From the NCBI RefSeq assembly GCF_009914755.1, contig NC_060925.1: a stretch of 64,000 bases of DNA; one strand, written 5' to 3'. The position numbers and the translations under genes were made by a program. Under the pieces are notes generated by a model. The model was not told the origin of the DNA. It worked only from the letters and a program-made list of their open reading frames with translations, and did no database searches. Positions 12,608 to 32,440 of this stretch are shown piece after piece. The DNA is from the human T2T-CHM13v2.0 reference genome, Homo sapiens. Each line of letters begins with the position of its first letter. Positions within the stretch are counted from its first letter, which is position 1.

Positions 12608-14703
12608 GTAAGTAGAAGCCTTTTATGTTTTCTTTCCTCCTCTCCTTCTATCTCTTAATGCTTGTTTAGGTCAGAATGTCCATGTTTGGTAGGACAGAAA
12701 TGAGTTTCTCTGGATTTTTTCCCAGCTGAGTATTTCCTGCCTATCCTTCAATTATATGAGGGTGTTGGAAGTAACAGTGTAGACTTTTCTCTTTGGCTAC
12801 ACTGCAGGCCTTTCTTCAATGTCAGCATTTTTGAGACTCCATGAATCTCACAAAAGAAATGAAAAGTTCTCAAAGGGATGTTTTTCTTTGTCATATTGTC
12901 TGTTCTGAATAGTCTTTCATGGATTTTCTAAAAGGAATTTTTAAGGTATCTTGAAATTTTTCAGTTATCACATTCCAGTGAACTTTTTCCTTCAATTTCT
13001 TTAAAACAGACACATAGTGAGTTTGTATAATATATATGTTTAAATTATATGAATTGGACTTTCTATTCTTGGTCAGAAAACATGGGGATAGGGAATAAAT
13101 AATACTTTAAATAGTGTAGAGAAGTCTGTCAGTTATTCCATTGATTGAACACATATGTAGAAATGGAGATGAGAACCAAATATACTGTTCTTTCATTTGC
13201 TATCCATTCTGTATTCTTATTGTATGCACCTCATCAAGCTTGAAATCCTCAGTGCGTGTTTCTAACACCTGAGGGGAAATGGCTTAATGATTTTAAGGGT
13301 TTCCTTATTATTTATCCATATTCATCCCATATTTATTAAATGACAGCTACTGTTCCTAGACCTTCATGGACAATGGATCAGCTCTTACAGAACTTACTCA
13401 CTGAGATAAAATGAAATGCCATTATTTAGGAGGCAGGGAAATAATTGGAAATTGCTTCCACAAGATCCTCTATCAATAAGATAGAGAGTTAAATAAGTAA
13501 TCAGAAAGTAGCACTGACCAAAGAGGGACAGATAAAATTATATACAGAAAATGAAAATAATGAACATGAAAAGAAGAGCTGAAAAGTTGGAGAGTAATAA
13601 AAATGATGAAGTGTTGTAAGTGGTTAAACACTTAAATAATTTAAAATCTGAATGTATTATTCTGTGATAAAAGATCTCAAAAATGAGAATTCTTTAGGAG
13701 CTGTTTCTAGGATTTGCAAGGGTAATTTTGACAGCGTATATGCCTTATTCACTGACCTTCGGACCTAACTCCTGTGTTAAGATGTGACTCTACTGTACTT
13801 GTCTTTTACAGTTTTCTGGGTCTGACTCTGGGAGGACAAACAAGATTTAGAATCAGACCTTGATTTGTTTCTGGAACTCACTAGTTTTGTGACCTTGGAC
13901 AAGTTACCTAAACTCTGTGCCTCATTTTCATTTCTTCAAACTAAAGATTCAAACAATTGTTTTCATAGGATTACTGTGAGAATTAAATGTCAGTGTTCAG
14001 TAGATCTAGTAATAAGTGATAGCTGTAGTCATGGTTATTGTACTACCCATTCTAGCCTGGATCAGAAGAAAAGTTACTAGTGGTTCCATAGGCAAGGGTC
14101 CCCAATCTGTTTCTTCCTTGACTTGCTACTTCCAAGACCTAGAACTAACTTAATTTAGAGCCATTGCCTTGGGAGAAGCTAGCATTGTCCAAGAATATGA
14201 GTATCCCACTTGCTAAATAGTTGCTTGAGTAGTATACACAGGCCTGTTTACTGGGATGCACAATTGTTCTGGAGCTTCTGGGCTGCATAAATCTCTCTTA
14301 TTCTATGGACCAGTCCTGCTGTGCTCATCAGCAGGGAATTGCTACTTCTAGAGTCTTCTGTGTGGTTTGCAACACCAAAAACTTGTTGTATGGCGTTGAA
14401 TTCTCACTTTGGGGGAACTGTTACGTGTCTTTAAGAACATTTATGATGATTTAGTCTTAGAAATAAGATTAAATCCTATCATTTTCACTGCTTACCACCC
14501 TGTAGAGCTTGTCACTCAGATATGCTTAATGCCACTATCTCTCAAGTAATCTAGGAACTTCTGACCTATTAAACATTCTGCAGTTTAGAAAAACTCTTTT
14601 TTAGTCTTAACACCGGGTGGCTTGCTTCAGAATATTTCCTACATGTTGGGGCTTATCCCATGCTGGGTTTTCCTTGTGGTCAGAATTTTATATACTGTAG
14701 TAC

Positions 14704-14986
14704 TTTTTTTTTTTTTTTTTGAGACAGAGTCTCGCTCTGTTGCCCAGGCTGGAGTGCAGTGATGCAATCTCAGCTCACTACAACCTCCACCTCCCGGGTT
14801 CAAGCCATTCTCCTGCTTCAGCCTCCTGAGTAGCTGGGATTACAGGTGCGCACCACACCCAGCTAATATTTTGTATTTTTAGTAGAGACGGGTTTTTCAC
14901 CATGTTGGTCAGGCTGGTCTCAGACTCCTGACCTCATGATTTGCCTGCCTTGGGCAGATTATAGGCGTGAGCCACTGTGCCTGGCC
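14704..14986 (-). mobile_element. Alu (S-like), ~100 nt upstream of the giant exon
   Basis: Poly(T) followed by gagacagagtctcgctctg...cctggcc. Confidence 0.95.
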
Positions 14987-15092
14987 TGTATACTATAGTT
15001 CTTTGAATGACTCCTTTCAATAGTTGTGCTTTGCCATTGGCTCTGATTCAGTTTTCTTTTTCTTCTCTTTTCCTTTTTTTTTTTTTTTTTAG

Positions 15093-31099: not shown

Positions 31100-32113
31100 G
31101 TCAGACTGAACCAGCAGCTGGGCTCAGTTTGTCTTTGGGGATGTCCTCTGTCATTGGGTTTTCTGGCCAGACTCTGTGTATCATGATTGCAGGAGCCTGG
31201 GTTTACCAATTTTGAAATTTCATGTCATGCAGGCCAGTATGGTTCTAGTCCAGGAGGCACTTGTTCTGGCTGTTGTTCTTGCCATGTCTTTGGTTTTATG
31301 TATGTGTGAGAGAATGTATGTGTTGACATGTGTATACATATGCAAGTGTTTTCTTTTAGTGAGACTTTTCCTTCGCTGTATCTCATTGTCTCTGAATTTC
31401 AAATGAAAATCATGTATCTAGTCCTTTCCCTACTTTACTTTCTCCTTTAGCATTGTTTTGAGGGCTCGTAAGAACATCTAGATACCCTGAGCTCTTGAGG
31501 AGAAGGGTTCTGAAATCAGTTTCATTCTATTTAATCTATTTCAAATGATTTACCATAAGGTTCCTTGACAATCCTTAAGTGGCTGACAAGGAAATTTTAT
31601 TAGAATCGTATTAATTTTTGGCTCTTTAAGAATTAATATTATTTTCTTGCACCTTTCCTCACAGTATAGTGCCCAGTGCTTATTCGCTTATTCAATCATG
31701 GAAAACAGTATGTAGAAGCAGGATGATACTAAAACAAACAAACAAACAAACAAAAAACTAACCATCCTACCATCTTCCATCACAACTCTCTTCTTGCAAA
31801 GCTCAACTCAACATAATTACATTAATAGTAACATCAAAACCTTAGAATACCCAGAATGATGTTCATGCCATTTCTGCTATTTGAATAGTAAGTTGGCATA
31901 TAGCAAGATGATATTAGAATTGTCATTATCACCATAAAATTTGTCTCAAGGGCTCCTTTATTAAATGTTGTGCAAAAAATTGAGCTTTTGAGTCAGACTT
32001 TAAGGGAATTAGGGTAGTTGGTGCCATATGTCCTGTATTACTGTCTCATTTTTTCAACTATATTGAAATTGAGATATATTAATGGAAAGCTTTAGGTTAC
32101 CTTTGAAAACTGA

Positions 32114-32285
32114 GCATGTGCAATGCTCGCATTCAGGAGTTTATATAGCATGATATAACCTTTGGATAATTAATGAAGTAAAATTCATCTGAGCCACATT
32201 AAGACAAGACCCAGCCCAGATTCAGGGTAGACTCCTGAGCTGCAGCAGGTGATAGAACTGCATGTGAACATTCTCCCTGAGCATG
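32114..32285 (+). promoter_or_regulatory. Cluster of four GCATG (RBFOX-type) motifs
   Basis: GCATG at 32114, 32148, 32260 (TGCATG from 32259) and 32281. Confidence 0.55.
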
Positions 32286-32440
32286 TAATTAATTCCACAA
32301 TGCTTATTAACCTTGTTATTGTCAGAAATGCTCTGCTTCTCTCAATATTTGCCTTGGATGTGTGTGTATGTCTCTGTGTTAACTTGTTTGCTTTGCTTTT
32401 TTCAGATTCAGTCTGCACCCATCCTAACCCATGAAGATCC

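What the first reader, a model, noticed from the sequence alone, without database searches (positions are those of the whole stretch)
12608..32405. Possible nested (intra-)splicing: orphan strong donor and orphan strong acceptor sit just inside the duplex
SEEN: CTG|GTAAGT at 12607/12608 lies ~110 nt inside the 5' arm. A strong acceptor (tgttaacttgtttgctttgctttttttcag|, AG ends 32405) lies ~35 nt inside the 3' arm. Neither site belongs to the main exon chain. INFERENCE: the duplex would juxtapose them, allowing a 19.8-kb nested intron 12608-32405 that removes the whole plectin block in one step. The shortened 11255-33366 intron would then be removed in a second step. The nearest donors for the resulting composite exon (ttt|gtaagt 32535, cag|gtgact 32545) lie in or next to paired segments and would be masked. 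KNOWN precedent: two-step intrasplicing in EPB41/EPB41L3.
Basis: partly seen in the sequence, partly recalled or inferred. Interest (0 to 1): 0.8.

Follow-up and report, generated by a model that had tools for sequence, protein, structure and literature searches.

The report
Unlisted splice-like sites in MACF1 intron
Two strong but unlisted splice-site look-alikes sit a few hundred bases inside a unique RNA pairing that brackets the optional plakin-repeat block of human MACF1, but nothing available here shows that they are joined to each other in a two-step splicing route.

Summary
Both sites exist exactly where stated: CTG|GTAAGT at 12607/12608, and a TTAAC branch-like motif, pyrimidine tract and AG ending at 32405. 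On a rough PWM whose frequencies I recalled, each ranks above the 99th percentile of GT or AG dinucleotides in the window.

The motifs alone are not beyond chance. GGTAAGT occurs 9 times against 6.6 expected, and ten comparably strong acceptors lie between the two sites.

The "duplex" has a solid, single-copy core, 12309-12363 with 32598-32649, about -56 to -59 kcal/mol. The two arms are each other's best partner in the window. The extension that would put the sites "110 and 35 nt inside" is marginal (6 of 100 and 14 of 300 shuffles). Measured from the core, the sites lie about 245 and 193 nt inside.

The donor has no usable acceptor upstream. The acceptor is followed 139 nt later by CAG|GTGACT, which gives a stop-filled pseudoexon-like unit. 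Nested 12607->32406 splicing is geometrically possible, but nothing requires or supports it. No RNA data could be reached.

Most likely these are cryptic sites or ends of unlisted exons beside a looping-out structure.

The parts
12605..12613 (+). Unlisted strong 5' splice-site motif CTG|GTAAGT (GT at 12608-12609)
   Evidence: Sequence. It scores 6.5 bits and is the only unannotated donor >=6.5 in 11255-33366. Near-equals lie at 22000 (6.3) and 29404 (6.1). No good acceptor lies within 400 nt upstream.
32379..32405 (+). Unlisted strong 3' splice-site motif: TTAAC branch-like motif (A at 32382), pyrimidine tract, CAG ending at 32405
   Evidence: Sequence. It scores 7.1 bits and is one of 8 unannotated acceptors >=7.1 in 11255-33366, and one of 29 in the window.
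32406..32544 (+). Pseudoexon-like unit of 139 nt closed by CAG|GTGACT (4.9 bits). The alternative end is 32534, before TTT|GTAAGT (0.3 bits, 129 nt).
   Evidence: Donors listed. All three frames hold stops.
12309..12363 (+). 5' arm of the solid core of the long-range pairing
   Evidence: RNAduplex gives -50.4 to -59.2 kcal/mol. Single-copy in the genome.
32598..32649 (+). 3' arm of the solid core
   Evidence: It is the reciprocal best partner of the 5' arm in the whole window. Single-copy.
12364..12536 (+). Marginal co-linear extension of the 5' arm. It pairs weakly, with gaps, with about 32447-32597.
   Evidence: Duplex z = -1.75, reached by 6 of 100 shuffles. DNA local alignment score 35, reached by 14 of 300 shuffles.
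11252..11260 (+). Main donor used when the block is skipped or included: AAG|gtactt, weak (0.5 bits)
   Evidence: and the hub table.
33344..33366 (+). Main acceptor of exon 33367-33516: ...gcattttaattag|, weak (2.4 bits)
   Evidence: and the hub table.
14704..14856 (-). Antisense Alu about 240 nt upstream of the plakin-repeat exon. It pairs with sense Alus at 28185-28337, 29364-29510, 29822-29970 and 30115-30262, giving competing and much longer duplexes.
   Evidence: I11, I13, I16, I21: 147-153 nt, 78-88% complementary. Sequence.

Best explanation
The two sites are real, consensus-strength splice-site motifs deep in the 22,112-nt stretch (11255-33366) that is removed when the optional plakin-repeat block of MACF1 is skipped. 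Most likely they are ordinary cryptic (decoy) sites that are used rarely or never. The donor at 12608 would be a lone U1-type site with no exon behind it. The acceptor at 32405 would be the front of a 139-nt, stop-filled pseudoexon (32406-32544).

They happen to lie about 245 and 193 nt inside a unique 43-bp-class RNA pairing, 12309-12363 with 32598-32649, that brackets the whole block. That pairing is the feature most likely to matter. By looping out about 20 kb it would bring the weak main donor (11254|gtactt) and the weak main acceptor (33366) to about 1.8 kb of effective distance, and so favour the block-skipping MACF1a-type isoform.

Splicing of 12607 to 32406 could occur now and then as a by-product, but it is not a required step.

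Shown here: the sites, their scores, the core pairing and its uniqueness. Inferred: that the pairing forms in vivo and promotes skipping, and that the sites are mostly silent.
For: Sites and scores.

The motifs are at chance frequency. GGTAAGT occurs 9 times against 6.58 expected, and 15 of 16 + strand GTAAGT are not annotated donors.

The donor lacks an upstream acceptor. The best candidates within 400 nt are 12266 (2.3 bits, 341 nt) and 12589 (3.4 bits, 18 nt).

All frames of 32406-32544 hold stops, and frame 0 of 12502-12607 holds a stop.

Core pairing:
- 22 of 23 matched, E = 0.005.
- -50.4 kcal/mol, reached by 0 of 100 shuffles.
- Best 60-nt tile pair is -56.3, against -36.3 to -43.6 as the best of three control sets (21,922 tile pairs in total).
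- The best of 11,999 DST tile pairs is -38.8.
- The arms are reciprocal best partners among 4252 tiles each; the next unrelated partners score -47.0 and -44.3.
- Both arms are single-copy.

The main sites are weak, 0.5 and 2.4 bits, while the block's first acceptor is the strongest in the window at 11.7.

Looped-out exons have lower inclusion, and complementary regions are enriched at inactive and cryptic sites (passages of PMC8052449).
Against: The joint proximity of a top-1% donor and a top-1% acceptor just inside the two arms is nominally improbable (0.004; thresholds set after the fact). Donor 12608 is the only unannotated donor >=6.5 in 22 kb. Both facts hint that the arrangement may not be accidental.

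Conservation could not be examined, and no RNA-seq, CAGE or full transcript catalogue could be consulted. The sites may be used more than I assume.

In a two-strand fold of 401 + 351 nt, the net gain from pairing the two regions over folding each alone is only -13.7 kcal/mol. Much longer inverted Alu pairs lie inside the block. So it is not certain that the core forms in vivo.

The PWM is rough and its frequencies are recalled.
Confidence: 0.5

Rival explanations
1. Both sites are ends of real exons that the single RefSeq transcript in the hub table does not show, and the two are unrelated to each other. 12607|12608 would be the donor of an internal non-coding first exon that splices to the plakin-repeat exon at 15093, giving a MACF1-4-type transcript that starts with plectin repeats. 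32406-32544 would be a poison cassette exon leading to nonsense-mediated decay.
For: Reviews describe MACF1-4 (Gong et al. 2001, not read) as lacking the actin-binding domain, having 8 plectin repeats at the N-terminus, and weighing 670 kDa against about 600 (a) and about 800 (b) (passages in PMC4914211, and PMC8012552).

The only plectin-repeat coding DNA found on this chromosome is the exon at 15093-20543 (stricter first look). Such a transcript therefore needs a start upstream of 15093. This is my inference.

A lone donor with no upstream acceptor is what a first exon looks like. Only two donors >=4 bits exist in 11255-15092, namely 12608 and one inside an Alu at 14846.

The frame ending at 12607 has no ATG after its last stop, which fits a 5' UTR exon with the start codon in the big exon.

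5 CpG per 200 nt at 12401-12650 is the 90th percentile of the window.

32406-32544 has a 7.1-bit acceptor, a 4.9-bit donor, a typical exon length, and stops in all frames.
Against: No transcript, CAGE or EST evidence was seen. There is no CpG island. The hub table lists no RefSeq functional element at either site.

One review lists a plakin domain for MACF1-4. That does not fit a start at the repeat exon.

MACF1-4 could be a cloning artefact of unspliced RNA (my inference).

Neither region has a retrocopy elsewhere in the genome.
Confidence: 0.25
2. The pairing juxtaposes 12608 and 32405, and a 19,798-nt nested intron is spliced out first, removing all five block exons. The remaining 2,314-nt intron (11255-12607 plus 32406-33366) is then removed by the main sites. 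This would be a regulated two-step route to the block-skipping isoform.
For: Both sites are strong and lie inside a genuine, unique bracket. The branch-like motif and AG-free tract sit in good geometry. The acceptor tract 32378-32402 is unpaired in the two-strand fold. The joint proximity is nominally 0.004.

The nested step would delete every competing acceptor of the block at once, and the main sites are weak.

Precedents:
- Nested splicing in DMD: 266 of 414 multi-step events were classed as nested, and 8 of 13 tested events were validated (passages of PMC4829307).
- 479 nested events among 97,338 splicing events, and the 4.1R case (passages of bioRxiv 10.1101/159350).
Against: There is no direct evidence. 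The pairing would equally shorten the main intron, so the step is unnecessary.

The donor has no exon-like partner acceptor. As I recall it, the 4.1R element is exon-like; that paper is not held.

Ten acceptors >=7.1 bits are transcribed before 32405, including 15092 at 11.7 bits.

The 'masked donors' claim rests on marginal pairing.

The ligated product CTG|ATT regenerates no splice site.

The DST paralogue shows no analogous bracket (best -38.8 of 11,999 tile pairs).

One lariat-based table lists MACF1 only for an 11,065-nt intron that matches none of the introns concerned here. No MACF1 mention appears in the main text of the genome-wide intrasplicing preprint.
Confidence: 0.07
3. The sites work without being spliced. 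The pseudoexon 32406-32544, and perhaps U1 bound at 12608, would act as a decoy that engages the main splice sites non-productively. That would delay or tune removal of the long intron (decoy-exon type regulation). Alternatively, U1 at 12608 would simply protect the long intron from premature cleavage and polyadenylation.
For: The 3' unit has exon-like architecture, with two closely spaced alternative donors 10 nt apart (32535 and 32545). Closely spaced alternative donors are noted as frequent in decoy exons (passages of PMC7373989). U1 binding to intronic splice-site-like sequences is mentioned in bioRxiv 10.1101/159350.
Against: No retention data exist for this intron. Decoy exons were described mostly in introns of 1-3 kb, not 22 kb. 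Conservation is untested.
Confidence: 0.06

Closest known systems
Nested (intra-)splicing of long introns, as reported for human DMD (Suzuki 2013, recalled through citations; Gazzoli 2016, PMC4829307, passages seen)
   Same: Two internal GT...AG sites, neither an annotated exon end, lie inside a long stretch that is removed from the mature mRNA. If used, they would shorten it before the final step.
   Different: Here the 'intron' contains five optional coding exons, and no junction or lariat has been seen. In DMD only 23.6% of nested events had GT-AG ends.
Intrasplicing in protein 4.1R / EPB41 (Parra et al. 2008, 2012). Not held; known to me from recall and from citing passages.
   Same: A first internal splice would delete competing strong acceptors, so that a distant weak acceptor can then be used.
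   Different: As I recall it, the 4.1R element is exon-like, with its own 3' and 5' sites, and depends on which first exon is used. Donor 12608 has no usable 3' site upstream. No link to promoter choice is known here.
Long-range complementary regions that loop out exons (PCCRs; the ATE1 R2-R5 ultra-long pairing). PMC8052449 passages; PMC7797038 abstract seen in the listing.
   Same: Unique intronic complements bracket skipped exons and are more stable than -30 kcal/mol. Looped-out exons show lower inclusion.
   Different: The spread is about 20.2 kb, beyond the 10,000-nt limit of that catalogue. Conservation and compensatory changes are untested here. MACF1 was not found in its main text or in the 3 supplementary files held.
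Pseudoexons, poison exons and decoy exons (PMC7373989, passages seen)
   Same: 32406-32544 has a strong 3' site, a usable 5' site, typical exon length, stops in every frame, and twin donors 10 nt apart.
   Different: No evidence of inclusion, of U2AF binding or of conservation.

Membership tests
Nested splicing (internal GT-AG pair within a removed stretch) | Both sites lie inside the removed stretch and neither is an annotated exon end | tested here: met
   12608 and 32405 lie within 11255-33366 and are absent from the exon list of NM_001394062.1 (hub table). Only 1 of 3 RefSeq transcripts was shown, and no GENCODE annotation.
Nested splicing (internal GT-AG pair within a removed stretch) | The junction or lariat of the internal event is observed in RNA | not testable with these tools
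   No RNA-seq or junction resource is available. The one lariat table searched lists MACF1 only for an 11,065-nt intron, which matches none of 3,838, 2,267 or 22,112 nt.
4.1R-type intrasplicing | An exon-like deep-intron element with its own 3' and 5' splice sites (feature recalled; paper not held) | tested here: not met
The best acceptors within 400 nt upstream of 12608 are 2.3 bits (341 nt) and 3.4 bits (18 nt).
4.1R-type intrasplicing | The first step removes a competing strong acceptor so that a weaker distal one is used | tested here: met
   By geometry only. The 12608-32405 stretch holds acceptors at 15092 (11.7), 21071 (8.7), 24390 (7.2) and 30865 (7.5). The distal acceptor 33366 scores 2.4.
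4.1R-type intrasplicing | The outcome is coupled to alternative first exon or promoter choice | not testable with these tools
   No transcript-level data.
Recursive splicing | A juxtaposed AG|GTAAGT-type site, or regeneration of a splice site after the first ligation | tested here: not met
   12608 is preceded by CTG and 32405 is followed by ATT. The ligated CTG|ATT regenerates nothing. An AG|GTAAGT motif does exist elsewhere, at 21999/22000.
Long-range looping-out RNA structure (PCCR-like) | Stable intramolecular complementarity between two intronic regions that bracket skipped exons | tested here: met
   The core scores -50 to -59 kcal/mol, the arms are reciprocal best partners in the window, and both are single-copy. 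It brackets exons 15093-31099.
Long-range looping-out RNA structure (PCCR-like) | Evolutionary conservation or compensatory substitutions | not testable with these tools
   No vertebrate genomes are on hand. The DST paralogue shows no analogous pairing, which says little either way.
Pseudoexon / poison exon | 3' and 5' splice sites 50-250 nt apart, with premature stops on inclusion | tested here: met
   32406-32544 (139 nt): acceptor 7.1 bits, donor 4.9 bits, stops in all three frames.
Pseudoexon / poison exon | Inclusion detected, for example when nonsense-mediated decay is blocked | not testable with these tools
   No expression data.

The most novel reading that the evidence does not exclude
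A unique, non-repeat RNA bracket of about 43 bp, 20 kb apart, flanks the optional plakin-repeat block of MACF1 and presents a top-1% donor and a top-1% acceptor to each other just inside the stem. The whole block would then be excised first as one 19.8-kb nested intron, and the weak outer sites would finish the job. This would be a structure-guided two-step switch between MACF1a and MACF1b.
Probability: 0.07. Interest if true: 0.65.

Novelty: new member of a known kind. Interest (0 to 1): 0.3.

Why it matters
MACF1a and MACF1b differ by about 2,067 residues of plakin repeats. How a cell skips or keeps a 20-kb, five-exon block whose first acceptor is the strongest in the region, while the outer sites are weak, is not explained in the reviews I could read.

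A defined RNA bracket, with or without a nested step, would give a directly testable handle on that choice, through antisense oligonucleotides or small deletions. It would also add a human example of very long-range structure-guided splicing.

If the two sites are just cryptic sites, they still matter as places where variants or splice-switching drugs could create aberrant MACF1 transcripts.

Tried and rejected
Repeat origin of the arms: rejected. Whole-genome searches with 331 and 321 nt gave only self hits. The 22-nt core with up to 2 mismatches gave 1 forward, 0 reverse and 0 control matches. That tool warns that very common words are skipped.

Known RNA family: none. There were 0 Rfam matches at gathering score in 11000-33600.

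Extended arms: marginal. The inner extension was reached by 6 of 100 and 14 of 300 shuffles. The outer extension shows nothing (45 of 50 and 192 of 300). My dinucleotide shuffle is approximate and barely scrambles short strings, so it is conservative for the core.

Paralogue test: I mapped DST in 100 kb of chr6. Homologues of MACF1 exons 11119-11254 and 33367-33516 were not detected, so the flanks I scanned (42203-44369 against 49885-55004 in gene orientation) are only approximate. No outlier duplex was found.

Promoter hint at 12.4-12.6 kb: 5 CpG per 200 nt, which is the 90th percentile of the window, but no CpG island. Undecided.

Literature:
- Searches for 'MACF1' with 'long-range RNA structure' and 'splicing' returned 0 papers.
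- 'MACF1' with 'recursive splicing' returned 2 papers. I judged them irrelevant from their listings only.
- 'MACF1' with 'cryptic exon' returned 2 papers. PMC10774274 describes an hnRNP A1-dependent MACF1 exon without giving its place in the passages seen.
- circMACF1 papers gave no exon coordinates in the passages seen.
- Supplement searches for MACF1: PMC10156609 gave 2 entries, both in another intron. PMC4482092 gave 0 in 2 files, and file 1 was not searched. PMC8052449 gave 0 in the 3 files held; its large tables sit on Zenodo and were not seen.

Parra 2008 is not held.

One search printed nothing. One search printed 4 of the 10 planned sets.
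Full report
SETTING. The window is part of human MACF1 (hub table). Exon 11119-11254 ends on a complete codon, and exons 15093-20543 and 33367-33516 both start in phase 0. The five exons from 15093 to 31099 measure 5451, 150, 216, 150 and 234 nt, all multiples of three. They form the optional plakin-repeat block that distinguishes MACF1b from MACF1a (passages of PMC4914211, and PMC8012552). When the block is skipped, 11255-33366 (22,112 nt) is removed.

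THE OBSERVATION.
- CTG|GTAAGT sits at 12607/12608.
- The tract ...gttaacttgtttgctttgcttttttcag ends with its AG at 32405. A TTAAC lies at 32379-32383, with its A at 32382, 23 nt upstream. No AG lies between that A and the acceptor AG.

STRENGTH OF THE SITES. I scored the sites with a simple log-odds PWM whose frequencies I recalled from memory, so the numbers are rough.
- The donor scores 6.5 bits. That is the 99.4th percentile of 3328 GT, and 11 of 27 annotated donors score as high.
- The acceptor scores 7.1 bits. That is the 99.3rd percentile of 4996 AG, and 7 of 27 annotated acceptors score as high.

IS IT MORE THAN CHANCE? As bare motifs, no.
- GGTAAGT occurs 9 times on both strands against 6.58 +/- 2.41 in shuffles, and 21 of 100 shuffles reach 9.
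- 16 GTAAGT lie on the + strand, and one (42764) is an annotated donor.
- The window holds 9 unannotated donors >=6.5 and 29 unannotated acceptors >=7.1.
- Within 11255-33366 the donor is the only unannotated one >=6.5, but TAG|GTAAGT at 22000 (6.3) and GAG|GTGAGA at 29404 (6.1) are near-equals.
- The acceptor is one of 8 unannotated ones >=7.1 in that stretch.

What is less expected is the position. For random intronic anchors, a donor >=6.5 lies within 250 nt downstream in 4.1% of cases, and an acceptor >=7.1 lies within 200 nt upstream in 9.2%. The product is 0.4%. Thresholds and distances were taken from the observed case, so this overstates the surprise several-fold.

THE DUPLEX. Among the 25 longest of 205 inverted pairs in 11255-33366, all are Alu-sized.
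- Direct comparison found one match, 12337-12358 with 32603-32625 (22 of 23, E = 0.005). The other 8 of the 9 alignments listed have E of 0.096 or worse.
- With G-U pairs and a 7-nt bulge the core extends to 12309-12363 with 32598-32649, giving 43 pairs in the two-strand fold. Energies range from -50.4 to -59.2 kcal/mol depending on the bounds.
- None of 100 approximate shuffles reach it.
- In a scan of 60-nt tiles, the cognate tile pair scores -56.3. The best of the other pairs in that set is -40.8 (8362 pairs in all). The best against the reversed partner is -36.3 (8362 pairs). The best against two other introns is -42.8 (8023 pairs) and -43.6 (5537 pairs) (the script timed out after these four sets).
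- Against the whole window, each arm's best partner is the other (-56.8 and -56.3). The next unrelated tiles score -47.0 and -44.3, among 4252 tiles each.
- Both arms are single-copy in the genome, so this is not a repeat pair.
- There is no Rfam family here.

For 12359-12500 against 32438-32602, z = -1.75 and 6 of 100 shuffles reach the observed energy. A gapped DNA alignment of 12383-12536 with the reverse complement of 32447-32596 is reached by 14 of 300 shuffles. The outer flanks show nothing. From the solid core, the donor is about 245 nt inside and the acceptor about 193 nt inside.

Two caveats bear on whether the core forms at all.
- Folding 12250-12650 together with 32350-32700 gains only -13.7 kcal/mol over folding each alone.
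- An antisense Alu at 14704-14856 pairs over 147-153 nt (78-88%) with four sense Alus at 28.2-30.3 kb. Those duplexes are far longer and would form other loops.

WHAT THE SITES LOOK LIKE LOCALLY. Upstream of 12608 there is no acceptor fit for exon definition. The candidates are 12266 (2.3 bits, 341 nt away), 12589 (3.4 bits, 18 nt away) and aaacag at 12501 (-5.3 bits). It is a lone donor. That fits a chance U1 site or the end of a first exon, but not an internal exon-like element.

Downstream of 32405, CAG|GTGACT (4.9 bits) closes a 139-nt unit and TTT|GTAAGT (0.3 bits) closes a 129-nt one. All three frames contain stops. That is the anatomy of a pseudoexon, poison exon or decoy exon.

The donors at 32535 and 32545 lie 53-63 nt outside the solid 3' arm. 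Their "masking" depends on the marginal extension. In the two-strand fold they pair instead with 12594-12612, largely through G-U pairs, which I do not trust.

MECHANISTIC APPRAISAL OF THE NESTED MODEL. It is possible.
- Once the 3' arm is transcribed, the stem would reduce the 19,798-nt gap between 12608 and the branch site to under 500 nt.
- The step would delete all block acceptors.
- The leftover 2,314-nt intron could then be removed by the main sites.
- Nested splicing is documented. PMC4829307 classed 266 of 414 multi-step events in DMD as nested, and 8 of 13 tested events were validated (passages). The preprint 10.1101/159350 reports 479 nested events among 97,338 splicing events (passages).

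Several points count against it.
- (i) The same stem brings the main donor (1,054 nt upstream of the 5' arm) and the main acceptor (717 nt downstream of the 3' arm) to about 1.8 kb of effective distance, so the nested step explains nothing extra.
- (ii) Ten acceptors >=7.1 bits are made before 32405, including 15092 at 11.7 bits. An active 12608 donor would meet those first.
- (iii) The donor lacks exon definition.
- (iv) The ligated CTG|ATT regenerates no site, so this is not recursive splicing.
- (v) No RNA evidence could be reached. One lariat-based table lists MACF1 only for an 11,065-nt intron, a length that matches none of the introns concerned. MACF1 is absent from the main text of the intrasplicing preprint, and from the PCCR paper's main text and the 3 supplementary files held. 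That catalogue used a 10,000-nt limit, which this 20-kb pair exceeds.
- (vi) The paralogue DST has a far more compact block and shows no comparable bracket. The best of 11,999 tile pairs is -38.8. The DST flanks are only approximately defined, because two flanking exon homologues were not found.

A RIVAL WORTH CHECKING. Reviews describe MACF1-4 as starting with plectin repeats instead of the actin-binding domain, at 670 kDa. The primary paper, Gong 2001, was not read. The only plectin-repeat coding DNA found on this chromosome is the big exon at 15093. Such a transcript therefore needs a start upstream of it, and 12608 is one of only two donors >=4 bits in 11255-15092. This is inference. One review also lists a plakin domain for MACF1-4, which does not fit.

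VERDICT.
- The sequence facts are right.
- The arm distances and the masking claim are overstated.
- The bracket's core is real and is, in my view, the more interesting object.
- The nested-splicing idea is unproven and unnecessary, but it is not excluded. I put it at about 7%.
- Most likely the sites are cryptic sites (about 50%) or ends of unlisted exons (about 25%).

Conservation, transcript catalogues and RNA-seq were out of reach here and would settle it.

Noticed in passing
window 12309-12363 and 32598-32649: A unique, single-copy complementary pair about 20.2 kb apart brackets the whole optional plakin-repeat block. Each arm is the other's best partner in the 64-kb window (-56 to -59 kcal/mol). 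It is a candidate looping-out structure for the MACF1a/b choice, and it lies beyond the 10-kb limit of the published PCCR catalogue.
   Followed up: partly
window 21999-22005: TAG|GTAAGT is an AG|GTAAGT motif like a recursive splice site, just 3' of an Alu in the 3.2-kb intron 21222-24390. Its donor score is 6.3. It is probably chance.
   Followed up: no
window 33279-33300: A strong unlisted acceptor, ...ttcctgttttacatttcag| (7.7 bits), lies 66 nt upstream of the weak annotated acceptor at 33366 (2.4 bits). The extra 66 nt would carry an in-frame TGA.
   Followed up: no
window 14704-14856 with 28185-28337, 29364-29510, 29822-29970, 30115-30262: An antisense Alu about 240 nt upstream of the 5.4-kb plakin-repeat exon pairs over about 150 nt with four sense Alus upstream of exon 30866. 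This architecture is typical of back-splicing and exon skipping around exons 15093-24842. The circMACF1 papers gave no exon coordinates in the passages I saw.
   Followed up: partly
window 11254/11255, 15092/15093, 33366/33367: The donor and acceptor used for block skipping are both weak (AAG|gtactt, 0.5 bits; ...taattag|, 2.4 bits). The block's first acceptor, a run of 17 T before AG, is the strongest in the window (11.7 bits).
   Followed up: partly
G000:C6:56395001-56495000 (loci L003-L012): In the DST paralogue the plakin-repeat exon (open frame of 1847 aa) and the following exons are packed into about 10 kb. tblastn did not detect homologues of MACF1 exons 11119-11254 and 33367-33516 there.
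   Followed up: partly
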